From the NCBI GenBank assembly GCA_022843925.1, contig JALHMS010000001.1, positions 144,294 to 208,293 on the forward strand: a stretch of DNA of 64,000 nucleotides. Direction: 5' to 3'. This document shows positions 47,511 through 56,396 of the stretch, piece by piece (the stretch's first letter is position 1; every line of letters starts with the position of its first letter). The translations under genes were made by a program, and so were the position numbers. Under the pieces are notes generated by a model. The model was not told where the DNA came from. It made no database searches and was given only the letters and a program-made list of their open reading frames with translations. The DNA is from Burkholderiales bacterium. Its GTDB lineage: Bacteria; Pseudomonadota; Gammaproteobacteria; Burkholderiales; Ga0077523.

Positions 47511-48559
47511 TGTTGTTCGTCGTGTGCGCCGGCGCGCGTCGTCGGCAATCCGTTCGATGACATTGATCGACCCGGGTCCGGAAAACTCGAGCCCGCTTCG
47601 CCGGTTTCGCCACCGAGGTGGCCGGTCGCCATGGCGGCCACGGCGGCCGCCGCGATGGCCTCGCCCCACTCGGGGACGAAATGACCGGCCTCGGCATCGG
47701 TGTAGGGCGGCGCGGCCCCGCGGATATGGCGGTGCAGCGCGTGCATCACCGGGGGCCCCAGCACGGGATCCTTGCCGCCGATCGCCATGAAACACTGGCC
47801 GCTCCAGGCGGTCTCGAACCAGGCCCGGGCCATCCGCGAGAGCGCGGCGCCTTCGGCGTCGAGGTGATCGGGGACCATCGCCGGGAAGCGGCGCACGCCG
47901 GCCTTGTGCTGCGCGTCCGGGAAGGGTGCGTCATAGGCAGCCCGCTCGGCTTCGGTGAGGTGCGGGCACGCACGACCAAGGAGCTTGCCCACCTCCATAT
48001 CGGGATGGCCGGCCGCCCACTGGCGCCACGCGAGGAAGCCCGGCGACAGCGGCTCATCCCCGGTGCCGAGCGTCGTGTTCATGACGAGAAGCCCCGTGAA
48101 CCGGTCGGGCCGCGCCATGGGCAGCGTGAGGCCCAGCAACCCGCCCCAGTCCTGGCAGACCAGACAGATGCCGCGCAGGTCGAGCGCATCGATGAAGGCG
48201 AGGAGGGCGTTCCGATGCCGCTCGAACGTGTACCAGCCGTCGTCCACCGGCTTGTCGGAGCGGCCGAAGCCGAACAGATCGGGGACGACGACCCGATGCC
48301 CCGCCGCCGCGAAGACCGGGATCATGCGCCGGTAGAGGTAGCCCCAGGTGGGCTCGCCGTGCAGGCAGAGGAAGACGCCCGGGGCGCCATCGGGATCGAC
48401 ATGCGGATCGACATGCGGACCAACACCCGGACCGACATCCACATAGTGCATCCGGAGGCTGTCGAAGCCGGGCAATGCGTCGAGATAGTGCGGGGGGAAA
48501 TCGAAACCGGGGAGGTTCGCGAAGCGATGGTCGGGCGTGCGCAGGAACGCGACCGTCAT
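47507..48559 (-). CDS. Haloalkane dehalogenase, HLD-I (DhlA-like) alpha/beta hydrolase
   Basis: Collinear with Xanthobacter DhlA as I recall it: FLCLHGEPTWGYLYRRMIPVFAAAGHRVVVPDLFGFGRSDKP, CQDWGG (nucleophile Asp), FMAIGGKD, EAGHFVPEWG (catalytic His). The stop overlaps the GH57 start by 4 nt. Confidence 0.9.
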   Translation of the reverse strand: MTVAFLRTPDHRFANLPGFDFPPHYLDALPGFDSLRMHYVDVGPGVGPHVDPHVDPDGAPGVFLCLHGEPTWGYLYRRMIPVFAAAGHRVVVPDLFGFGRSDKPVDDGWYTFERHRNALLAFIDALDLRGICLVCQDWGGLLGLTLPMARPDRFTGLLVMNTTLGTGDEPLSPGFLAWRQWAAGHPDMEVGKLLGRACPHLTEAERAAYDAPFPDAQHKAGVRRFPAMVPDHLDAEGAALSRMARAWFETAWSGQCFMAIGGKDPVLGPPVMHALHRHIRGAAPPYTDAEAGHFVPEWGEAIAAAAVAAMATGHLGGETGEAGSSFPDPGRSMSSNGLPTTRAGAHDEQQ

Positions 48560-49782
48560 AGCAACCTGGAGAGATCGCCGCGGGTGAAGCCGAGCAGCGG
48601 GGCATCGACCCCGCGGGACAGCGCCACCACCTTGAACAGTTCCCCCATTTCCGACGGACTCATCAGTTTCTGCGCTTGCGACGCCAGGGGCAGGTAGATG
48701 GAAGCATGCGCCGCCGGCACCTCGGAAAGCAACTGTGCGATGCCGCAGTTCACGAGGAAGTTCGCCTGCGTCGTGTAGCCGGCAAAGCGCAGGCCGGCCG
48801 CCACACCCGCTTCCGCCACGGCGGTGAAGTCGACGTGGGCCGTGATGTCCTGCAGCCCCGGCAGGACGAAGGGGTCGTCGTGCATCCGATGCCGGTAGTG
48901 ACACACGAGCGTGCCGCGGTCTCTCTGGGAGTGGTAGTACTCGCGCCGCCCGAATCCGTAGTCGACGAAGAGCAGCGCGCCCGCGGTCAGCGATCCGGCC
49001 AGTGCGCGAACGAGCGCCTCGGCGCGCGGGCAGAACTCGGTGTCGTAGGGCGGCAGGAAGGCGAGGGCCTCGGCGCGGTCCCGCACGGGTCCGGCGGCGA
49101 GCGGTCGCCCGGCCCAGACGAACGATCCGTCGGCCAGCGACACGCCGCGCTCCCACAGACCGTCGTCGCGCCGGCTCACGAGCGACACCGGCAGCGCATC
49201 GAGCACCTCGTTCGCGAGGATCAGGCCCTCGAAGCTGGCAGGCAGCGCGTCGATCCACACGGCGCGGTGGGCCTCGCCGGGAACGCTGGCGGCGATGTGT
49301 TGCCTCTGTCGGTCGCGGAGATCGGCGCTCACGTCGAGCAGGAGGTAGCGGTGCGGGGGCTGGCCCAGCCGGGCCAGTTCCTCGAGCAGCGTCGCCGCGA
49401 GACGGCCGGTGCCGGGGCCCAGTTCCAGGACGTCGCCACCGGTCGTCGCAAGAACCTCGGCCACCTGGCGGGCCAGAGTGCGACCGAAGAGTTCGGAGAT
49501 CTCCGGCGCCGTGACGAAATCCCCATCGACGCCGAACTTGCGGCTCCCACCGGCGTAGTAGCCGAGGCCGGGGGCGTAGAGGGCGAGGTCCATGTAGGCA
49601 TCGAACGGAATCCAGCCGCCGGCGTCCGTGATCCGGTCGGCGATGAGGTCGCGGAGGCGATCGGAATGCACGATCGCCGCCACGGAGGGCGGCACCAGAT
49701 CCGGAAACAGTGCGGACAGTGCCGACAAGCCGGAGAGTGGGGACAAGCGGGACGTCGGAGCAGGATGTGGGCGCGGGGCCAC
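48556..49782 (-). CDS. DUF185 / MidA-NDUFAF7-like class I SAM-dependent methyltransferase
   Basis: IPFDAYMDLALYAPGLGYY, GDFVTAPEISELFG, VLELGPGTGRLA. The start codon is GTG. The stop overlaps the dehalogenase start by 4 nt. Confidence 0.8.
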   Translation of the reverse strand: MAPRPHPAPTSRLSPLSGLSALSALFPDLVPPSVAAIVHSDRLRDLIADRITDAGGWIPFDAYMDLALYAPGLGYYAGGSRKFGVDGDFVTAPEISELFGRTLARQVAEVLATTGGDVLELGPGTGRLAATLLEELARLGQPPHRYLLLDVSADLRDRQRQHIAASVPGEAHRAVWIDALPASFEGLILANEVLDALPVSLVSRRDDGLWERGVSLADGSFVWAGRPLAAGPVRDRAEALAFLPPYDTEFCPRAEALVRALAGSLTAGALLFVDYGFGRREYYHSQRDRGTLVCHYRHRMHDDPFVLPGLQDITAHVDFTAVAEAGVAAGLRFAGYTTQANFLVNCGIAQLLSEVPAAHASIYLPLASQAQKLMSPSEMGELFKVVALSRGVDAPLLGFTRGDLSRLL

Positions 49783-49840
49783 GGGCGGGGACGCAGGGGG
49801 CGTGGCGTAGAATCGGGATTAAACAACGAGGTGGTGAACG

Positions 49841-50581
49841 ATGCAAAACCGGGTGGTCCTGATCACCGGCGGCGCCCGACGCGTGGGTGCCGCCATCTGC
49901 CGGCATCTCCACGCGGGGGGCGCCAACCTCCTGGTGCACTACAGGTCGTCGGCAGTGGAGGCTCGGGCGCTGCAGGCCGAGCTGAACGCCATCCGGCCGG
50001 ATTCGGTGGCCCTCGTGCAGGCGAATCTGCTCAATATCGCGCACCTGCCGACGCTCGTGAACGAGACGGTCCAGCGGTTCGGCCGACTGGATGTGCTGGT
50101 CAACAACGCTTCGAGCTTCTTCCCCTCCCCGGTGGGCGACATCACCGAGGAAACCTGGGACGACCTCATCGGGACCAACCTCAAGACGCCGCTCTTCCTC
50201 TCCCAGGCCGCGGCGCCGCATCTGCGCCGCACCGAAGGGTGCATCGTGAACATCGTGGACATCCACGCCGACCGGCCCATGAAGAACTACCTCGTCTACA
50301 ACGCCGCCAAGGGCGGCCTCGTGTCGCTCACGCGGTCCCTCGCCCGGGAACTGGGGCCCGAGGTGCGGGTGAACGGCGTGGCACCCGGGGCGATCCTCTG
50401 GCCGGAGGACGAGGCGTGGTCCGACGAACTGGCGCGCCACCGCATCATCGGGACCACGCTGCTGAAGCGGGCGGGCGAACCGTCGGACATCGCGAAGGCG
50501 GTACGCTTCCTCGTCGAGGACGCGCCCTACGTCACGGGCCAGATCCTGGCGGTGGACGGCGGTCGCAGCGTGCACCTCTAG
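49841..50581 (+). CDS. Pteridine reductase-like short-chain dehydrogenase (SDR)
   Basis: [26 protein letters not shown] (Y-x3-K), [12 protein letters not shown]. This matches the PTR1/FolM-type pattern. Confidence 0.8.
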
Positions 50582-50591
50582 GCCGCCCACG

Positions 50592-51482
50592 ATGACGACC
50601 GGCGACATCCAGAAGCAGACCGTGGAGGCGAACAAGCTCGCCAAGCGCCTGCGCCGCCAGGTGGGCGAGGCGATCGCCGACTATCGGATGATCGAGGGCG
50701 GCGACCGCGTGATGGTCTGCCTCTCCGGCGGCAAGGACAGCTACGGCCTGCTCGACGTCCTGCTGTCCCTCCAAGCAAGTGCGCCGGTGCCCTTCGAGAT
50801 CATCGCGATGCACCTCGACCAGGCCCACCCCGGCTATCCGGCGGACGTGCTGCCCAACTACCTCACGGCGCTCGGCGTGCCGTTCCACATCGAGCGGCAG
50901 GACACCTACTCGACCGTGAAGCGGGTGATCCCCGAGGGGAAGACGATGTGTTCGCTGTGCTCGCGGCTGCGGCGCGGCGTGATCTACCGGGTTGCGACCG
51001 AGCTGGGTGCCACGCGCATCGCCCTGGGCCACCACCGCGAGGACATGCTGGAGACGCTGTTCCTCAACATGTTCCACGGCGGCAAGCTGAAGGGGATGCC
51101 GCCGAAGCTCGTCTCCGACGATGGGCGACACGTCGTGATCCGACCGCTCGCGTACGTCGCGGAAAAGGATCTCGCCGCCTACGCCGAGGTGAAGGCGTTC
51201 CCGATCATTCCGTGCGACCTCTGCGGCTCGCAGGAGAACCTGCAGCGCCACCAGATCAAGTTGATGCTGGCCGACTGGAACCGCCGCTTCCCGGGGCGGA
51301 TCGAGACCATGTTCCGCAGCCTGCGGAATGTCGTGCCCTCGCACCTTGCCGACCCGACGCTCTACGACTTCGCGAATCTCGAACCCACGGGCACCCCCGA
51401 CCAGGACGGCGACACCGTGTTCGACACGCCCGACATCTCCCGCCCGGGCAGCATTCCCCTGACCTTCGTGACCGAGCCCTGA
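50592..51482 (+). CDS. ttcA: tRNA 2-thiocytidine(32) synthetase
   Basis: [12 protein letters not shown] (PP-loop), [10 protein letters not shown] and CDLCGSQ cysteine motifs, ALGHHRED. Confidence 0.92.
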
Positions 51483-51586
51483 CATCGTCGGAAGCTCCGG
51501 CGAGGTTTGCCATGCCTTTCTTGTCAAAATGAATTTGATAAGGCAGAGTCCAGGCCCGTGGTCAACTTTCCAACGATCCTGATCCC

Positions 51587-53098
51587 ATGAACTGCGCCGA
51601 GCGCCTCGTCAGCCTGTTCGGTACCCAGGCGGAAGTCTCACGCCGCCTCAAGCTCGACCGGGCTGTGGTCAGCCACTGGGTGAAGTCCGGCTACATCCCC
51701 GCACGGTGGGCCATGGAAGTGGAAGCCGTGTCGGAAGGTCGGATCGAAGCCGTAGAAATACTGAACGAGGCCAATCGCCTCCGACCCGTGCGGGTGAAAT
51801 CGCGCGGGGAGGACGAAGGCGTGTTCGGTTCCGCCATAACAGGGAGCGACATCATGAATTCATTCGCGCCGGCCAAGCGCATCCATTCCTTCCACCCGCC
51901 GCAGCGCACGCTGATGGGCCCGGGTCCGACGGAGATCCACCCGCGCGTACTGACCACGATGAGCCAGCCGGCCATCGGGTACCTCGACCCGGTGTTCGTC
52001 GAGATGATGGAAGAGCTGAAGAGCCTCCTCCGCTACGTCTACCAGACGAAGAACGCGCTGACGTTCCCGGTCTCCGGCCCCGGTTCGGTGGGCATGGAGT
52101 ACTGCTTCGTGAACATGGTCTCGCCCGGCGACAAGGTCGTGGTCTGCATCAACGGCGTGTTCGGCGGCCGGATGCTCGAGAACGTGATCCGCTGCGGCGG
52201 CGTGCCGGTCGTCATCGAACACGAATGGGGCACGCCCGTCGACCCGCAGCGCCTGGAGGACACCCTCAAGGCGAATCCGGACACGAAGGTTGTCGCGTTC
52301 GTGCACGCCGAGACGTCCACCGGTTGTCTGTCGGACGCCAGGACGCTCGTGGACGTGGCCCATCGCTACAACGCCCTCACGATCGTGGACGCGGTGACGT
52401 CGCTCGGCGGCGTCCCGGTGCTGGTCGATGAATGGGGCGTGGATGCCATCTACTCCGGCAGCCAGAAATGCCTCTCCTGCACGCCCGGTCTGTCGCCGGT
52501 GTCGTTCAACGAGCGCGTCGTCGAGCACGTGAAGGCCCGCAAGGACAAGATCCACAGCTGGTTCATGGACATGAACCTGCTGCTCGGCTACTGGGGCGCC
52601 ACGAACCGCACGTATCACCACACCGCACCGACGAACTCGCTGTTCGCACTCCACGAAGCGCTGCTGCTGATCCGCGAGGAGACGCTCGAGGACTGCTTCG
52701 CGCGCCACCGCCGCCATCACCTGGCGCTGAAGACCGGCCTCGAGGCGATGGGTCTGCACTTCCTCGTTAAGGAGGAGTACCAGATCCCGCAGATGAACGC
52801 GGTGCGCATCCCCGAGGCGATCCAGCCGAAGGAGGCCGAGGTCCGCAAGCGTCTGTTGAACGAGTTCAACCTCGAGATCGGCGCCGGCTTGGGCCCGCTC
52901 GCCGGCAAGATCTGGCGCTTCGGAACGATGGGCTACTCGTGCCGGCCGGAGAACGTGATGCTGTGTCTTTCGGCCCTGGGTTCCGTCATGTCGGACCTCG
53001 GCATGCCGGTCCACGTCGGCGACGCCGAAGCGGCAGCGCACGACGCCTACGCCCAGATGCACAAGCACGCAGCCCAACAGAAGAAGCGCGTCGCCTGA
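51587..53098 (+). CDS. P22-Cro/YdaS-like HTH domain fused in frame to a class V (AGXT-type) aminotransferase; possible internal start at 51854
   Basis: Residues 1-60, LFGTQAEVSRRLKLDRAVVSHWVKSGYIPARWAMEVE, resemble P22 Cro (FGTQ.AVAKALGIS.AAVSQW). No stop codon occurs before the aminotransferase core (LMGPGPTEIHPRVL, SGSQKCLSCTPGLSP with the PLP Lys). An AGGGAG lies 7 nt before the ATG at 51854. Confidence 0.8.
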   Translation: MNCAERLVSLFGTQAEVSRRLKLDRAVVSHWVKSGYIPARWAMEVEAVSEGRIEAVEILNEANRLRPVRVKSRGEDEGVFGSAITGSDIMNSFAPAKRIHSFHPPQRTLMGPGPTEIHPRVLTTMSQPAIGYLDPVFVEMMEELKSLLRYVYQTKNALTFPVSGPGSVGMEYCFVNMVSPGDKVVVCINGVFGGRMLENVIRCGGVPVVIEHEWGTPVDPQRLEDTLKANPDTKVVAFVHAETSTGCLSDARTLVDVAHRYNALTIVDAVTSLGGVPVLVDEWGVDAIYSGSQKCLSCTPGLSPVSFNERVVEHVKARKDKIHSWFMDMNLLLGYWGATNRTYHHTAPTNSLFALHEALLLIREETLEDCFARHRRHHLALKTGLEAMGLHFLVKEEYQIPQMNAVRIPEAIQPKEAEVRKRLLNEFNLEIGAGLGPLAGKIWRFGTMGYSCRPENVMLCLSALGSVMSDLGMPVHVGDAEAAAHDAYAQMHKHAAQQKKRVA

Positions 53099-53142
53099 GC
53101 GAACTGCGCACCCGGTAATTCATCCCGGAAGTCATGGAGAGC

Positions 53143-53172
53143 GGCGGACCCTGGTCCGCCGTTTTTCGTTTC
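53143..53172 (+). terminator. Rho-independent terminator after the aminotransferase gene
   Basis: GGCGGAC-CCTGG-GTCCGCC followed by GTTTTTCGTTT. Confidence 0.65.
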
Positions 53173-53280: not shown

Positions 53281-54093
53281 ATGAATTCCCTCGGTCGATG
53301 GACGCTCGTCGCGCTCGCTTTTGGTCTTGCGACCACGACGACGCGCGCCGAAGTGGTGCTGTATGCGAACGACTTCGAGACCGCGATCGGCCCGGAGTGG
53401 TCGAGCACCTCGACCTACGCCTGGGGGCTGCAGCAGACGCCGGCCGACGACACCGGCGGCGGATTCCTCGGCTACTTCGGCGGCGACAACGCGACGACGC
53501 TCACGCTGACGGACCTCCCGTCGGGCCTCGCCAGCCTCACGCTGGAGTTCGATGCCTATCTGATGTGGTCGTGGGACGGCGAGGACACCCGGCCCGTCGA
53601 CGGCGTTCCCCGCGGCCCTGATCGCTTCGGATTCCGGAGCGGCACGGGCAACGGTCTCGTCGCCGGAAATTCCTGGACCTTCAGCCACGGCAGCGCGGCC
53701 ACCGGCCTGCAGTCGTTCTGCGGCGACACGCTGGCGCCGTGCGCGCCGACCACCGGGGCCCTGTCCCGATACGCGCTCGGCTACCGTTTCGAGATCGTGC
53801 CGACCGAGGAGGACCTCGACACCACGGGCGCCGCCCCCATGGACTCCGTCTACCGGTTCGCATGGACGGCCACCCACGACGGTGGCACCACGGCGTCTTT
53901 CACGTTCTTCAGTGCGGGACTGCAGGTGCGACCGGATCTCGAGTTCCCCTATCTCGACGAGGCCTGGGGCCTCGACAACGTCCGGGTCATCCACACGCCC
54001 GTCCCGGAGCCCGCGGAGTCGGGGCTGCTGGCACTCGGTCTTGCGATGCTCGCCGTCGTCCACCGCCGCGGCAGACGTCGCGACGCCTGCTGA
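53281..54093 (+). CDS. PEP-CTERM sorting-domain secreted protein
   Basis: Signal peptide MNSLGRWTLVALAFGLATTTTRA. C-terminal VPEPAESGLLALGLAMLAVVHRRGRRR gives the PEP motif, a TM helix and an Arg cluster. Confidence 0.85.
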   Translation: MNSLGRWTLVALAFGLATTTTRAEVVLYANDFETAIGPEWSSTSTYAWGLQQTPADDTGGGFLGYFGGDNATTLTLTDLPSGLASLTLEFDAYLMWSWDGEDTRPVDGVPRGPDRFGFRSGTGNGLVAGNSWTFSHGSAATGLQSFCGDTLAPCAPTTGALSRYALGYRFEIVPTEEDLDTTGAAPMDSVYRFAWTATHDGGTTASFTFFSAGLQVRPDLEFPYLDEAWGLDNVRVIHTPVPEPAESGLLALGLAMLAVVHRRGRRRDAC

Positions 54094-54161: not shown

Positions 54162-56396
54162 ATGCCGCACGCCCTGAAGATCGACCCGCTGACGGACCTC
54201 CCCCCGCCGCCCGCTGCCCCCACGCCCGAAACGCTCTCCCGACCACGCCAGGCACTCGTCGCCGTCTACGTGATCGTCGCGCTCTGGTATCTGCTCTGGC
54301 GTCCCGAGACTTTCAACGCCGCAGCGCCGTGGTTCTCGCGTCTCGTCTACGCGGGCGAGGTGTTCGGCTTCGTCACGGCCGTGCTGCACATCCACATGGT
54401 GTGGCGGCTGTCGGTACGCGAAGCGCCCGCGGCGCCGGCGGGCCTAGTGGTCGATGTGTACGTCACCACCCGGGACGAGCCGGTCGAGATGCTGCGCCGG
54501 ACGCTGGTCGCCGCCACCCGCATGTCCTATCCGCACGTGACCTGGCTGCTCGACGACGGCAACCGGCCCGCCATGCGCGAGCTCGCCGGCGAGCTGGGCG
54601 TGCAGTACCTCGCCCGCGCGCGGCATCGGCACGCAAAGGCAGGCAACCTGAATCACGCGCTGTCCCGCACCCTCGGCGACTACATCGCCGTCTTCGATGC
54701 GGACCACGCCCCGGCGCGGGACTTCCTGACGCGGACGCTCGGCTACTTCCAGGACGCGCGGGTCGCGTTCGTATCGACGCCGCAGGACTTCTACAACCTC
54801 GACTCGTACCAGCATCGCAACGATGCCCAGACCCGCCTCGTGTGGAACGAGCAGTCGCTGTTCTTCCGCGTGATCCAGCGCGGCAAGGACGTCACGAACA
54901 GCGCGTTCTTCTGCGGCACCTGCGGCATCCTCCGCCGCAAGGCCCTGGACGACATCGGCGGCTTCGCCGTCGACACGGTCACGGAGGACCTCGACACCTC
55001 GGTCCGCATCCACCGCAAGGGATGGCGGTCGGTGTACCACGCCGAGCCGCTCGCGTTCGGCGTCGCGGCTCCCGACTTCGTGCCGTTCGTGCGGCAGCGG
55101 GTGCGCTGGGGCCAGGGTGCCATGCAGGTGCTGAGACGGCACGGCCTGCTGTTGTTCGCCAGCGGGCTGACCCTCCCCCAGCGCCTCAACTACTTCGCCA
55201 GCACCATCATGTATTTCGACGGCTGGCAGAAGGCCCTCTTCTACCTCGCGCCGGCGATCGTCCTGATGACCGGTGCGATGCCGATCAGCCAGCTCTCGTG
55301 GGAGTTCGTGCTGCGGTTCGTCCCGTACTACCTGCTCACGTTCTGGGTGTTCGAGGAGGTGGGCCGCGGCTACGGGCGCGCGCTCGATGTCGAGCGATAC
55401 AACATGGCGCGCTACGGCGCCTTCGTGTGGTCGACCCTCGGCCTGCTGCGCCGACGCCTCGCCTTCCGCGTCACGCGGAAGCATCGGAGTCCGGACGGGG
55501 GCCGCGCAGGCCGTCGCTTCCTGTGGCCGCAGTGGGCCGTCCTCGGCATGAATGCCGCGGCGATTCCCGTGGGCCTTCTTCTCCAGGCACTCGGCGTCAT
55601 CGCCCTGCCCACGGCGGCACTGATCGCGAACATCTTCTGGGCGCTCGTGAACGTGGTCCTCGCGCGTGCCGTCGTCGGCTTCACCCGTCGCGTTTCCGGA
55701 TTCCACCGACGCGAGTATCGGTTCCGCATTCCGCTCCCCGCGCTGCTGTCGGGAGACTCCCGTCGTCCCCACGCGGGGATCCTCGACGACGTGTCGGCGG
55801 AAGGCTTCAAGTACTACGGGCGGTTCCCCGCGGACACGGCGCCCGGCGACACGGTCGCGGGGGAGATCCTGCTGCCGAGCGGACGGATGCCCTTCCGTGC
55901 CACGGTCTGCGCATGCTTCCCGGGACCGAGGGACGGCGACGTGCGCGCGCTCGGGTGCCGGTTCGACTGGAACACGCCTTCCGAGGCGGACGCCCTGATC
56001 GCCTTCCTCTACGGGTCCGACCTGCAATGGAAGTTGAACCGGCTGAGCGACCGCTCGCGCACCCCGCTCGAGCGGTTCCTGCGATGGGTGCGCCGACCGG
56101 CTCGGCCGGCGCCGGAAGCCCCGGACGCACCGTGGGCCGCCGCGGTGGTCCGCAGCGCGGACACGCCGGATCGGGGGATGCACCCGGGCATCGTCTCGGT
56201 CCCATCGGCGTCGGGTGACGAACGCACGCTCGTCGTGTTCCGGCGGATGGGGGCGCGGGAGCGCCTGGAGATCCTCGTCACGACACGGGCGGGGACATCG
56301 ATGCTGCGGTCCGGCGCCATGCTGTTCGACGCCATGCTCGCGAGCGGCACGCCGCTCTACCTCTACCGGTTGCCTCCTGCAGGGGAATTCCGATGA
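54162..56396 (+). CDS. Cellulose-synthase-like processive family-2 glycosyltransferase with a C-terminal PilZ domain
   Basis: DVYVTTRDEP, LLDDGNR, HAKAGNLN, FDADH, FFCGTCG, TEDLDTS (TED), QRVRWGQG (Q-x-x-R-W), multiple TM helices. The PilZ motifs are RREYRFR (RxxxR) and LDDVSAEG (D-x-S-x-x-G). Confidence 0.85.
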   Translation: MPHALKIDPLTDLPPPPAAPTPETLSRPRQALVAVYVIVALWYLLWRPETFNAAAPWFSRLVYAGEVFGFVTAVLHIHMVWRLSVREAPAAPAGLVVDVYVTTRDEPVEMLRRTLVAATRMSYPHVTWLLDDGNRPAMRELAGELGVQYLARARHRHAKAGNLNHALSRTLGDYIAVFDADHAPARDFLTRTLGYFQDARVAFVSTPQDFYNLDSYQHRNDAQTRLVWNEQSLFFRVIQRGKDVTNSAFFCGTCGILRRKALDDIGGFAVDTVTEDLDTSVRIHRKGWRSVYHAEPLAFGVAAPDFVPFVRQRVRWGQGAMQVLRRHGLLLFASGLTLPQRLNYFASTIMYFDGWQKALFYLAPAIVLMTGAMPISQLSWEFVLRFVPYYLLTFWVFEEVGRGYGRALDVERYNMARYGAFVWSTLGLLRRRLAFRVTRKHRSPDGGRAGRRFLWPQWAVLGMNAAAIPVGLLLQALGVIALPTAALIANIFWALVNVVLARAVVGFTRRVSGFHRREYRFRIPLPALLSGDSRRPHAGILDDVSAEGFKYYGRFPADTAPGDTVAGEILLPSGRMPFRATVCACFPGPRDGDVRALGCRFDWNTPSEADALIAFLYGSDLQWKLNRLSDRSRTPLERFLRWVRRPARPAPEAPDAPWAAAVVRSADTPDRGMHPGIVSVPSASGDERTLVVFRRMGARERLEILVTTRAGTSMLRSGAMLFDAMLASGTPLYLYRLPPAGEFR

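What the first reader, a model, noticed from the sequence alone, without database searches (positions are those of the whole stretch)
51587..53098. In-frame fusion of a phage P22 Cro/YdaS-like HTH domain to a class V (AGXT-type) PLP aminotransferase
Seen: one uninterrupted 503-codon ORF. Its first 60 or so residues (MNCAERLVSLFGTQAEVSRRLKLDRAVVSHWVKSGYIPARWAMEVEAV) match the P22 Cro/YdaS pattern FGTQ-x-AV-x5-x-S-x-AVSQW-x5-IP. A linker of about 30 aa follows. Then comes a complete aminotransferase with the PLP lysine (SGSQK). The aminotransferase also has its own plausible start, an ATG at 51854 with AGGGAG 7 nt upstream, so both a fused and a stand-alone isoform are conceivable. The 104-nt upstream region (51483-51586) is the most AT-rich stretch I noticed in the window (TTCTTGTCAAAATGAATTTGATAAGG). 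The gene appears lower in GC than its neighbours. Established: MocR/GabR regulators fuse a GntR HTH to a fold-type I aminotransferase and use PLP chemistry to sense effectors. Inference: this may be an analogous but architecturally different (Cro-type HTH plus class V fold) PLP-dependent regulator or moonlighting enzyme. I do not recognise it as a described family.
Basis: partly seen in the sequence, partly recalled or inferred. Interest (0 to 1): 0.65.

Follow-up and report, generated by a model that had tools for sequence, protein, structure and literature searches.

The report
Cro-type repressor domain fused to aminotransferase
A whole lineage of uncultured betaproteobacteria carries an apparently active glyoxylate-type aminotransferase with a phage-Cro-like DNA-binding domain on its front end; sequence evidence suggests the gene represses its own promoter and also makes a shorter, enzyme-only form from an internal start.

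Summary
ORF 51587-53098 (503 aa) is a genuine, conserved fusion of a Cro/YdaS five-helix HTH (res 1-66), a disordered linker of about 25-40 aa, and a complete AGXT-type class V aminotransferase with invariant catalytic residues. All 120 best database proteins and all 80 best genome loci (down to 75% identity) keep one uninterrupted frame. The apparently split versions are frameshifted assemblies. The HTH is under purifying selection (dN/dS 0.12, enzyme 0.10).

Two further findings:
- The internal ATG (Met90) is conserved in 80/81 sequences. Its GGGAG is kept by codon choice (Gly86 GGR 97% against 20% gene-wide; Ser87 AGY 55/55 against 25%), so an enzyme-only isoform is probably made.
- Met1 has no Shine-Dalgarno. 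It sits behind a conserved sigma70 promoter whose spacer holds a 19-bp dyad (TGTCAAAnTnAnTTTGACA). This dyad is unique in the window, and in 956 kb of related loci it occurs only upstream of this gene (76/81 loci). In 28 relatives the ATG lies 6-8 nt after the -10, which predicts a leaderless mRNA.

Best reading: an autorepressing enzyme-regulator ("trigger enzyme") with two isoforms. It resembles PutA and MocR in logic but is a member of neither. No publication was found. DNA binding, both isoforms and the substrate remain untested.

The parts
51587..53098 (+). Full ORF, long isoform (503 aa): Cro-like HTH, linker, AGXT-type aminotransferase
   Evidence: The single frame is conserved in 80/80 loci and in the 120/120 best proteins.
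51521..51526 (+). -35 hexamer TTGTCA of the gene's own sigma70-type promoter
   Evidence: TTGTCA in 76/76 located sites, with a 17-nt (68) or 16-nt (8) spacer to the -10.
51522..51540 (.). 19-bp dyad TGTCAAAATGAATTTGATA (family consensus TGTCAAAnTnAnTTTGACA), the putative operator filling the promoter spacer
   Evidence: Unique in the 64-kb window, with 0.04 matches expected by chance. In 956 kb of 81 loci all 77 occurrences lie within 160 nt upstream of this gene, in 76/81 loci. Dyad pairs are 87-100% complementary at six of nine positions.
51544..51549 (+). Putative -10 hexamer CAGAGT. It is weak in the window's clade; most other clades have TGnTAnnnT.
   Evidence: Placed by alignment with the relatives. 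The simple consensus scan does not call it.
51550..51586 (+). Leader of about 30 nt without a Shine-Dalgarno in front of Met1
   Evidence: An SD-like 4-mer lies upstream of Met1 in only 5/81 loci. There is no Rfam match. In 28 relatives this gap is only 6-8 nt.
51587..51784 (+). Cro/YdaS-type five-helix HTH domain (res 1-66; helices 3-11, 14-21, 25-34 as the recognition helix, 39-48, 55-65)
   Evidence: dN/dS is 0.12 in the window's clade.
51785..51853 (+). Linker (res 67-89; the predicted disorder continues to about res 110). It begins with the invariant basic motif P67-x3-K71-S72-R73.
   Evidence: pLDDT of about 30. dN/dS is 0.21. Invariant columns are listed.
51841..51846 (+). Internal Shine-Dalgarno AGGGAG, embedded in codons Thr85-Gly86-Ser87
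   Evidence: Gly86 is GGR in 97% of sequences against 20% gene-wide, the extreme outlier among 33 conserved Gly columns. Ser87 is AGY in 55/55 Ser codons against 25% gene-wide. An SD-like 4-mer is present in 79/81 sequences.
51854..53098 (+). Short isoform ORF (Met90 to stop, 414 aa): stand-alone AGXT-type aminotransferase
   Evidence: ATG in 80/81 sequences. Met90 coincides with the N-termini of unfused solved homologues, which project to query residues of about 85-107. Aminotran_5 is matched.
52466..52468 (+). Codon of the PLP-binding Lys294 (motif S-Q-K)
   Evidence: Invariant in 34/34 sequences, together with D268, R444, Y343-H-H-T346 and S163-G-P-G-S167. It aligns to the SQK motif of 1vjo.
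53134..53171 (+). Intrinsic-terminator-like GC hairpin followed by a U-run, closing a monocistronic unit
   Evidence: Fold energy -28.1 kcal/mol, z = -3.5. The downstream genes are not conserved among relatives.

Best explanation
The gene encodes a catalytically competent AGXT-type (class V) PLP aminotransferase that has acquired an N-terminal Cro/YdaS-type HTH and uses it to repress its own promoter. It is an enzyme-regulator, or 'trigger enzyme'.

Proposed mechanism:
1. Transcription starts from a sigma70 promoter (-35 TTGTCA, 17-nt spacer, -10).
2. Two in-frame translation starts are used. Met1 has no Shine-Dalgarno, and in about a third of relatives it sits at the predicted 5' end of a leaderless mRNA. 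It gives a minor long isoform (HTH-linker-enzyme, 503 aa). Met90, served by a selectively maintained internal GGGAG, gives the major enzyme-only isoform (414 aa).
3. The aminotransferase domain is an obligate homodimer in all solved relatives. It therefore brings two HTHs together on flexible linkers, so a long/long dimer can bind the 19-bp dyad TGTCAAAnTnAnTTTGACA.
4. That dyad occupies the promoter spacer and overlaps the -35, so binding would occlude RNA polymerase and give negative autoregulation.
5. Long/short heterodimers carry only one HTH and should bind poorly.

Shown here: the conserved fusion; the HTH fold; the intact catalytic residues; purifying selection on every part; nucleotide-level selection on the internal SD; and the conserved, gene-specific, dyad-symmetric element inside the promoter.

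Inferred: that this HTH binds that dyad; that both isoforms are made; the direction of regulation; any modulation by substrate or PLP; and the substrate itself (glyoxylate- or pyruvate-linked, AGT/UGXT-like).
For: - Fusion: the 120/120 best proteins are 498-517 aa and carry PF15943 plus PF00266. All 80/80 best genome loci give a single HSP starting at residue 1.
- Selection: pN/pS is 0.27 (HTH), 0.44 (linker) and 0.20 (enzyme) family-wide. dN/dS is 0.12, 0.21 and 0.10 within the window's clade.
- HTH identity. The AF2 N-terminal model has pLDDT 89, and its best PDB matches are Cro proteins, including N15 Cro bound to its operator.
- Enzyme: 1vjo E 3e-101, PucG 1e-89, UGXT 5e-79. K294, D268, R444 and the YHHT motif are invariant.
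- Internal start: ATG in 80/81; Gly86 GGR 97% against 20%; Ser87 AGY 55/55 against 25%; an SD-like motif upstream of Met90 in 79/81 but upstream of Met1 in only 5/81. Met90 matches the N-termini of unfused homologues.
- Promoter and operator: -35 TTGTCA in 76/76, with spacer positions 93-99% conserved and dyad-symmetric. The element is unique in the window. All 77 occurrences in 956 kb are upstream of this gene. In a metagenome-wide scan, 15 of the 22 hits in contigs with GC >= 0.57 lie 35-60 nt upstream of a fusion gene.
- Leaderless geometry: 6-8 nt between the -10 and the ATG in 28 loci.
- Stand-alone unit: a terminator follows the gene, downstream synteny is variable, and no adjacent regulator gene is conserved.
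Against: - There is no experimental evidence for DNA binding, for either isoform, or for the transcription start site.
- The window's own -10 (CAGAGT) is weak, the consensus scan calls no promoter here, and the window's leader is about 30 nt, not leaderless.
- The window's HTH scores just under the Pfam and NCBIfam cut-offs.
- The same palindrome occurs in LysR/MFS divergent promoters of unrelated bacteria. The sequence can therefore be read by another kind of regulator, and a trans-acting factor cannot be excluded.
- Only about 12 kb per genome was examined, so the absence of other sites genome-wide is untested.
- No covariation between recognition helix and operator could be demonstrated.
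- The published Cro recognition code does not cover this helix.
- The full-length AF2 model is of low confidence in parts of the enzyme, and no dimer or DNA model was made.
Confidence: 0.55

Rival explanations
1. Only one protein is made, the 503-aa fusion. The conserved GGGAG-N7-ATG is a relic of the ancestral start, or serves another purpose such as a translational pause between domains, and is not a functional internal initiation site. The HTH may still autoregulate.
For: No direct evidence of initiation at Met90 exists. Met90 could be conserved for protein reasons. The fusion plausibly arose from a cro-like gene upstream of the aminotransferase, which would leave its RBS behind.
Against: Synonymous sites are near saturation across the family (pS 0.5-0.64). 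Even so, the synonymous choices that create GGGAG are kept in 97-100% of sequences against a 20-25% background, which indicates ongoing selection at the RNA level. The spacing of 7 nt is optimal for initiation. Met90 matches the N-terminus of unfused homologues.
Confidence: 0.15
2. The dyad in the promoter is the site of a different, trans-encoded regulator (for example a LysR-type protein). The fused HTH would then bind elsewhere, or have a non-transcriptional role such as nucleoid tethering or a protein-protein contact.
For: An essentially identical palindrome sits in LysR-regulator/MFS divergent promoters in unrelated bacteria. No covariation between the HTH and the operator was found. Whole genomes were not scanned.
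Against: The dyad co-occurs with the HTH-bearing gene in 76/81 loci and nowhere else in 956 kb. No regulator gene is conserved next to it. A dimeric enzyme carrying two Cro-type HTHs is exactly what a 19-bp dyad needs. The Cro/YdaS family consists of dedicated operator-binding proteins.
Confidence: 0.15
3. It is a MocR-like pure transcription factor. On this view the aminotransferase domain is a catalytically inactive PLP/effector sensor and the protein is not a metabolic enzyme.
For: MocR/GabR proteins provide a precedent for an HTH fused to an aminotransferase fold used as a sensor (papers listed, for example PMC5320631).
Against: All catalytic and substrate-binding residues are invariant. 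The enzyme core has the strongest constraint (dN/dS 0.10) and is about 50% identical to bona fide AGTs. A selected internal start produces an HTH-less form, which makes no sense for a pure regulator.
Confidence: 0.06
4. The fusion is an artefact: a lost stop codon, a frameshift, or an over-extended ORF in high-GC DNA. On this view the real gene starts at Met90 and the upstream part is either non-coding or a separate small gene.
For: Short 'stand-alone YdaS' proteins exist in databases. High-GC genomes carry many long spurious ORFs.
Against: 80/80 independent genomes and 120/120 protein clusters keep the same frame. The upstream part is under purifying selection, matches the HTH HMMs and folds confidently. 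The stand-alone cases are frameshifted assemblies, with HSPs in three or four frames and broken neighbouring genes.
Confidence: 0.02

Closest known systems
PutA of enterobacteria (trifunctional proline utilisation A, a 'trigger enzyme'; from my own knowledge)
   Same: A catalytically active metabolic enzyme carries a small N-terminal DNA-binding domain and represses its own (put) promoter. The enzyme's oligomerisation brings the DNA-binding domains together. The DNA-binding domain is present only in some lineages of the enzyme family.
   Different: PutA uses a ribbon-helix-helix domain and flavoenzyme/aldehyde dehydrogenase domains. Its switch is redox- and membrane-driven. No internal start giving a DBD-less isoform is known for it. 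Here the domain is a Cro-type HTH on a PLP aminotransferase, and regulation is only inferred.
MocR/GabR/PdxR regulators (GntR wHTH plus fold-type I aminotransferase-like domain; PMC5320631, PMC10450172)
   Same: An N-terminal DNA-binding domain is joined by a long flexible linker to a dimeric PLP fold-type I domain, and the dimer positions two DNA-binding domains on repeated DNA sites.
   Different: The DNA-binding domain is of a different superfamily (Cro/YdaS all-alpha HTH, not a GntR winged helix). The PLP subclass is different (class V AGXT, not class I AAT-like). Here the catalytic residues are intact and an enzyme-only isoform is probably made. MocR proteins are sensors that regulate other genes.
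Lambdoid Cro proteins with the all-alpha fold (Xfaso-1 Cro 3bd1, P22 Cro 1rzs, N15 Cro 6on0) and E. coli YdaS (8c7k, 8co2)
   Same: The same five-helix fold (TM 0.78/0.87 to 3bd1) and the same sequence family. These proteins bind palindromic operators as dimers and repress promoters by occlusion (PMC6649833).
   Different: Those are free-standing prophage proteins of 60-100 aa that dimerise through their own surfaces or on DNA. Here the domain is chromosomal, sits in a housekeeping neighbourhood, is fused to an enzyme that would supply the dimerisation, and has recognition-helix residues (R/V/H or N at H1/H3/H6) outside the described Cro code.
Tn5 transposase/inhibitor and similar dual-start genes; leaderless lambda cI from P_RM (from my own knowledge)
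   Same: In Tn5, two in-frame starts give a full-length protein with an N-terminal DNA-binding region and a shorter form lacking it, and the two can form mixed oligomers. Lambda cI from P_RM is a repressor translated from an AUG at the 5' end of its mRNA.
   Different: These have unrelated proteins and functions. The resemblance concerns expression logic only, and that logic is not demonstrated here.
Bacterial AGXT-family enzymes: Nostoc AGT (1vjo), B. subtilis PucG (3isl), Klebsiella ureidoglycine-glyoxylate aminotransferase (3nnk)
   Same: The enzyme body is clearly of this family (E 3e-101 to 5e-79) and has the same catalytic motifs.
   Different: All of these are unfused proteins of 390-416 aa. 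None of the NCBIfam equivalog models (BhcA, PhnW, pyridoxamine-pyruvate transaminase) is reached. There is no purine- or glyoxylate-pathway neighbourhood here.

Membership tests
Pfam YdaS_toxin (PF15943) / P22_Cro (PF14549) HTH family | HMM score at or above the gathering threshold | tested here: inconclusive
   Window protein: YdaS 29.5 bits against 30, P22_Cro 22.5 against 30.2. This is marginally below threshold. However, 34/34 family members match YdaS at E <= 1e-3 (best 2e-10) and 31/34 match P22_Cro, and the precomputed Pfam hits for relatives list both families.
Pfam YdaS_toxin (PF15943) / P22_Cro (PF14549) HTH family | All-alpha five-helix Cro fold with helix 2-turn-helix 3 | tested here: met
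   AF2 model with pLDDT 89 and helices 3-11, 14-21, 25-34, 39-48 and 55-65. The top Foldseek PDB hits are 3bd1 (TM 0.78/0.87, rmsd 1.3 A), 5w8y, 6on0, 2hin and 1rzs, followed by YdaS 8c7k and 8co2.
Pfam YdaS_toxin (PF15943) / P22_Cro (PF14549) HTH family | Sequence-specific binding to a palindromic operator | not testable with these tools
   A conserved 19-bp dyad lies in the gene's own promoter, but binding by this domain is an inference.
Class V aminotransferases, AGXT/SGAT subgroup (PF00266) | HMM match above threshold and homology to solved AGTs over the whole domain | tested here: met
   Aminotran_5 scores 68.2 bits against a cut-off of 21.5. 1vjo matches at E 3e-101 over residues 100-467, and human AGT at about 1e-70.
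Class V aminotransferases, AGXT/SGAT subgroup (PF00266) | PLP Schiff-base lysine (SxSQK), the PLP-N1 aspartate, the substrate-carboxylate arginine and the YHHT phosphate/neighbour-subunit motif | tested here: met
   K294, D268, R444 and Y343-H344-H345-T346 are invariant in 34/34 sequences and align with 1vjo. The assignment of roles is from my knowledge of human AGT.
Class V aminotransferases, AGXT/SGAT subgroup (PF00266) | Transaminase activity and a defined substrate pair | not testable with these tools
   No NCBIfam equivalog threshold is reached: BhcA 205 against 650, PhnW-AepZ 188 against 361, pyridoxamine-pyruvate transaminase 182 against 600.
MocR/GabR subfamily of GntR regulators | N-terminal GntR-type winged HTH | tested here: not met
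   There is no GntR hit. The N-terminal domain is Cro/YdaS-type by HMM and by fold.
MocR/GabR subfamily of GntR regulators | C-terminal class I (AAT-like) aminotransferase-fold sensor domain, usually not a working enzyme | tested here: not met
   The best family is class V Aminotran_5, and Aminotran_1_2 is only sub-threshold (18.8 against 19.7). The catalytic residues are intact.
NCBIfam NF046037 'carph-isopro' domain | HMM score at or above the cut-off (38 bits) | tested here: not met
   34.6 bits for residues 4-52. No literature on this model was found.
Trigger enzymes (active enzyme that also acts as a DNA-binding transcriptional regulator, e.g. PutA) | A single polypeptide with an intact catalytic domain and a DNA-binding domain | tested here: met
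   The combination is conserved in all relatives examined.
Trigger enzymes (active enzyme that also acts as a DNA-binding transcriptional regulator, e.g. PutA) | Regulates transcription (typically of its own gene) in response to metabolic state | not testable with these tools
   This is only supported indirectly, by the gene-specific dyad overlapping the -35 and the spacer.
Leaderless mRNAs | A -10 element 6-8 nt upstream of an ATG start, with no 5' UTR or Shine-Dalgarno | tested here: inconclusive
   The geometry is met in 28 of 76 relatives but not in the window, where the gap is 37 nt. Met1 lacks an SD in 76/81 loci. No TSS data are available.

The most novel reading that the evidence does not exclude
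The gene is a self-contained metabolic feedback device of a kind not yet described. A single transcript makes an enzyme and, from a weak or leaderless upstream start, a small amount of the same enzyme carrying a Cro domain. Because the enzyme dimerises, the short isoform titrates the long one into one-armed heterodimers, acting as a built-in anti-repressor in the way Tn5 Inh acts on the transposase. The PLP/substrate state of the active site could change linker docking or dimer geometry. Promoter occupancy would then report both enzyme level and glyoxylate/amino-acid status. This would be a PLP-enzyme-based transcription switch that evolved independently of MocR.
Probability: 0.3. Interest if true: 0.75.

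Novelty: new variant of a known kind. Interest (0 to 1): 0.62.

Why it matters
- **A second, independent HTH-PLP-fold fusion.** Bacterial HTH fusions to PLP-fold domains are so far known as MocR-type sensors. Here a different HTH superfamily has been joined to a different, still-catalytic aminotransferase class. It is fixed across a large uncultured Burkholderiales lineage: at least 80 species-level genomes were verified as fused, and 586 loci with relatives were detected.
- **A compact experimental system.** One promoter, one dyad and two starts make it tractable for studying how enzymes become regulators, how dimeric enzymes can lend bivalency to monomeric phage-type HTHs, and how leaderless and SD-led initiation can set an isoform ratio.
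- **Annotation.** Current annotation ('aminotransferase class V-fold PLP-dependent enzyme', 'alanine-glyoxylate transaminase') ignores the DNA-binding domain, the internal start and the operator. Frameshifted assemblies have also seeded databases with spurious 'stand-alone YdaS' proteins from this gene.

Tried and rejected
1. **Split orthologues.** The short HTH-only proteins on long contigs (P0160, P0141, P0162) turned out to be frameshift artefacts in the same synteny. No genuine split version was found.
2. **Other fusions of this HTH.** An exhaustive search of 1.84 billion representatives with residues 1-89 gave 166 hits. All those of 130 aa or more with high identity are fragments of the same fusion, and none is joined to another enzyme.
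3. **Literature.** Searches for 'carph-isopro', for YdaS plus aminotransferase, for trigger enzyme plus aminotransferase, and for Cro/HTH/class V found nothing relevant.
4. **Cro recognition code (PMC6649833).** It is not applicable, because the H1/H3/H6 residues are outside the code.
5. **Covariation of recognition helix and operator.** In the five loci with degenerate operators the result was inconclusive.
6. **Riboswitch or known RNA in the leader.** There was no Rfam match.
7. **Simple sigma70 and terminator scan.** It misses both the promoter (weak -10) and the terminator. The promoter rests on comparative evidence and the terminator on folding.
8. **Pathway inference from neighbours.** Only the housekeeping block of Methyltransf_28, SDR and a PP-loop (TtcA-like) gene is conserved upstream, and the downstream side is variable. 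No substrate clue emerged.
9. **Recent horizontal transfer.** I rejected this as the explanation for the lower GC. The difference is small and the gene is syntenic.
10. **Metagenome-wide motif scan.** Most of the 120 hits are chance matches in AT-rich DNA, so only the high-GC subset is informative.
11. **Full-length AF2 model.** The alignment was too shallow for a reliable enzyme core (mean pLDDT 66.7). It was used only for the domain boundaries.
Full report
**Observation.** The window contains an uninterrupted 503-codon ORF at 51587-53098 on the + strand.
- Pfam places Aminotran_5 on residues 138-404 (E 9e-19). On residues 6-59 it places YdaS_toxin (29.5 bits, cut-off 30) and P22_Cro (22.5 bits, cut-off 30.2).
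- NCBIfam gives a sub-threshold 'carph-isopro' HTH domain (34.6 against 38). No enzyme equivalog is reached: BhcA 205 against 650, PhnW-AepZ 188, pyridoxamine-pyruvate transaminase 182.
- The intergenic stretch holds the lowest-GC 50-mer (51503-51552, GC 0.40) and the lowest 104-mer of the whole window.
- The gene's GC (0.651) is only slightly below that of its neighbours (0.669-0.696).

**The fusion is real and conserved.**
- All 120 best hits among 5.8 billion proteins (78-100% identity) are 498-517 aa and carry PF15943 plus PF00266. Sources name them only 'aminotransferase class V-fold PLP-dependent enzyme' or 'alanine-glyoxylate transaminase'.
- In one-genome-per-species GTDB contigs, 586 stretches encode a relative. 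The 80 best (75-99% identity) are all uncultured Betaproteobacteria/Burkholderiales MAGs, and each gives a single tblastn HSP from residue 1 with no stop or frameshift. L001 (LNEE01000062) is 99% identical to the window.
- Short 'stand-alone YdaS' proteins found with the N-terminal part were examined on their contigs. They lie in the same SDR/PP-loop/HTH/aminotransferase synteny on assemblies whose neighbouring genes are also fragmented. The fusion gene there is broken over three or four frames, or carries compensating indels.

**Every part is translated and constrained.**
- Across 81 sequences, pN/pS is 0.27 for the HTH, 0.44 for the linker and 0.20 for the enzyme.
- Within the window's own clade, dN/dS is 0.12, 0.21 and 0.10.
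- Synonymous sites are close to saturation (pS 0.5-0.64), so conservation at synonymous positions is informative.

**The N-terminal domain is a Cro-type HTH.**
- 34/34 aligned family members match YdaS_toxin (best E 2e-10) and 31/34 match P22_Cro.
- phmmer against all PDB sequences finds only Cro proteins: XPH1 5w8y, Xfaso-1 Cro 3bd1 and P22 Cro 1rzs, aligned end to end over 58 residues.
- AF2 predicts five helices (3-11, 14-21, 25-34, 39-48, 55-65). The pLDDT is 89 for the isolated domain and 70-89 within the full-length model, followed by a linker with pLDDT of about 30 up to about residue 110.
- Foldseek against the PDB ranks Xfaso-1 Cro first (TM 0.78/0.87, rmsd 1.3 A). Next come XPH1, N15 Cro (including its operator complex 6on0) and P22 Cro, then YdaS.
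- An exhaustive HMMER search of 1.84 billion representatives with residues 1-89 finds only 166 proteins. The close ones are this fusion or fragments of it, and the rest are free-standing Cro-like proteins of 60-100 aa at 35-45% identity. No fusion to another enzyme appears. The fusion is therefore one lineage-specific event.

**The enzyme looks active.**
- The body aligns with Nostoc AGT 1vjo (E 3e-101), PucG (1e-89), ureidoglycine-glyoxylate aminotransferase (5e-79) and animal AGTs (about 1e-70).
- K294 (S-Q-K), D268, R444, Y343-H-H-T346 and S163-G-P-G-S167 are invariant in 34/34 sequences. The roles of these residues are assigned from my knowledge of human AGT.
- This distinguishes the protein from MocR-type sensors. 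The substrate cannot be assigned.

**An internal ribosome-binding site is under selection.**
- Met90 is ATG in 80/81 sequences (one TTG).
- The Gly86 codon is GGR in 97% (GGG in 81%) against 20% (13.6%) gene-wide. It is the extreme outlier among 33 conserved Gly columns, the next highest reaching 35% GGG.
- Ser87 is AGY in 55/55 Ser codons against 25% gene-wide.
- An SD-like 4-mer lies 5-15 nt upstream of Met90 in 79/81 sequences, but upstream of Met1 in only 5/81.
- Met90 also coincides with where unfused homologues start, which projects to query residues of about 85-107 from the alignments.
- The simplest reading is that the ancestral start of the aminotransferase is still used and gives a 414-aa enzyme-only isoform.

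**The promoter contains a gene-specific dyad.**
- Aligning the upstream regions reveals cTTGTCAAAaTaAtTTTGaCAtGgTAaacT. This is a -35 TTGTCA (76/76), a 17-nt (68) or 16-nt (8) spacer, and a -10 of the TAnnnT type, often with a TG extension (36/76).
- The spacer is as conserved as the hexamers (93-99% at TTTG.CA) and forms a 19-bp dyad with the -35: TGTCAAAnT-n-AnTTTGACA. Six of the nine symmetric pairs are 87-100% complementary.
- In the window the dyad is 51522-51540, the -35 is 51521-51526 and the -10 is a weak CAGAGT at 51544-51549.
- The element is unique in the 64-kb window, with 0.04 matches expected by chance.
- In 956 kb of the 81 loci it occurs 77 times at two or fewer mismatches, every time within 160 nt upstream of Met1 of this gene (76/81 loci).
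- A scan of the metagenome collection for TTGTCAAANTNANTTTGWYA returned 120 loci. Most are chance hits in AT-rich DNA. Of the 22 hits in contigs with GC >= 0.57, 15 lie 35-60 nt upstream of a fusion gene.
- Six of the remaining seven high-GC hits adjoin LysR-type regulator genes in other bacteria, typically in LysR-regulator/MFS-transporter divergent promoters. This is a genuine caveat, because the palindrome as such can serve another regulator type.

**Leader classes.** The distance from the -10 to the ATG falls into three classes.

| Gap from -10 to ATG | Loci | Note |
|---|---|---|
| 6-8 nt | 28 | Predicts a leaderless mRNA beginning at the AUG |
| 10-21 nt | 19 | One sub-clade carries a TTCTC-N5-GAGAA inverted repeat |
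| 25-67 nt | 29 | Includes the window, at 37 nt |

No Rfam family matches the leader. Downstream, a GC hairpin plus U-run (53134-53171, -28.1 kcal/mol, z = -3.5) closes the unit.

**Synteny.** Upstream synteny (Methyltransf_28, SDR, and a PP-loop/TtcA-like gene) is kept in about half of the loci. Downstream genes vary, and no regulator or pathway gene is consistently adjacent.

**Model.**
- The gene is a monocistronic, probably autorepressed unit.
- A weakly initiated (leaderless or SD-less) long isoform carries the Cro domain.
- A strongly initiated short isoform is the bulk enzyme.
- Dimerisation through the aminotransferase domain, which is universal in solved relatives (established knowledge), would give bivalent long/long dimers able to bind the dyad. 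Because the dyad sits between the -35 and the -10, binding would exclude RNA polymerase.
- Heterodimers with the short form would be monovalent.
- Whether substrate or PLP state modulates binding is open.
- The invariant basic motif P67-x3-K71-S72-R73, directly after helix 5, may add DNA contacts. This is an inference.

**Comparison with known systems.**
- The logic is that of trigger enzymes such as PutA (my own knowledge) and, architecturally, of MocR/GabR (papers).
- Membership of MocR fails on both defining domains: there is no GntR wHTH, and the aminotransferase is class V rather than class I.
- The HTH belongs to the all-alpha Cro/YdaS family by fold and, for the family as a whole, by HMM.
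- The published Cro recognition code cannot be applied, because H1/H3/H6 are Arg/Val/His or Asn (PMC6649833).
- A covariation test between helix and operator was inconclusive.
- No publication describing this architecture was found.

**Verdict.**
- Novelty: a new variant of a known kind, namely an enzyme-regulator fusion. It adds an undescribed domain combination, a selected dual start and a predicted leaderless long isoform.
- Main uncertainties: no experimental evidence for DNA binding, for the isoforms or for the TSS; a weak -10 and a non-leaderless arrangement in the window's own clade; and possible use of the dyad by another regulator.

Noticed in passing
L084:2848-2867, L111:4754-4774, L123:7983-8003, L167:5789-5809, L170:2808-2827: An almost identical palindrome (TTGTCAAAATnATTTTGACAA) lies next to LysR-type regulator genes, in L084, L111 and L167 between the regulator and a divergent MFS transporter gene. 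These contigs come from unrelated bacteria (GC 0.58-0.65) and have no aminotransferase nearby. It is probably the LysR autoregulatory site of a separate system.
   Followed up: partly
L014, L040, L047, L050, L051, L058, L061: the 17-19 nt between the -10 and the ATG of the fusion gene: One sub-clade carries a conserved inverted repeat, TTCTC-N5-GAGAA, in its very short leader. It could be a small hairpin or a weak purine-rich RBS. It is unexplained.
   Followed up: no
window 51785-51805 (residues 67-73): Within the otherwise variable, disordered linker, the residues P67, K71, S72 and R73 (motif PVRVKSR) are invariant in 34/34 sequences. This is a basic tail directly after helix 5 of the HTH, possibly an extra DNA contact or a docking or cleavage site.
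   Followed up: no
L081, L082, L083 (ENA assemblies ERZ25039492 and ERZ25039565): These long-contig assemblies are riddled with indels, and many genes are split (Methyltransf_28, the TtcA-like gene, AdoHcyase and the fusion gene). This has generated spurious 'stand-alone YdaS' and truncated aminotransferase entries in protein databases.
   Followed up: yes
P0216 (661 aa): This protein has at least three tandem copies of a Cro-like HTH, each about 31% identical to the HTH of this gene; HMMER reported 7 matched stretches. P0239 (612 aa, 6 stretches) may be similar. A multi-HTH architecture like this is unusual.
   Followed up: no
window 53281-54093 and 54162-56396: The gene immediately downstream has no Pfam hit, and its C-terminus looks PEP-CTERM-like by eye. 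It is followed by a GT2/cellulose-synthase-like glycosyltransferase with a C-terminal PilZ domain, which suggests a c-di-GMP-controlled exopolysaccharide locus. This neighbourhood is not conserved among relatives.
   Followed up: partly
window 48556-51482: The block of Methyltransf_28 (- strand), SDR and PP-loop ATPase (TtcA-like) (+ strand) upstream of the fusion gene is conserved in about half of the related genomes. TtcA-type enzymes need a sulfur donor from class V-fold cysteine desulfurases, but this aminotransferase is AGXT-type, not NifS-type. The adjacency is therefore probably only lineage synteny.
   Followed up: partly
L029, L031 (upstream of the fusion gene): In these two loci the operator has diverged to TGTCAGGAAGATACTGGCA and still keeps partial dyad symmetry, with A-to-G and T-to-C changes at mirrored positions. 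L078, which has the same divergent recognition helix (DRAVVNNWMKAG), keeps TGTCAA half-sites.
   Followed up: partly
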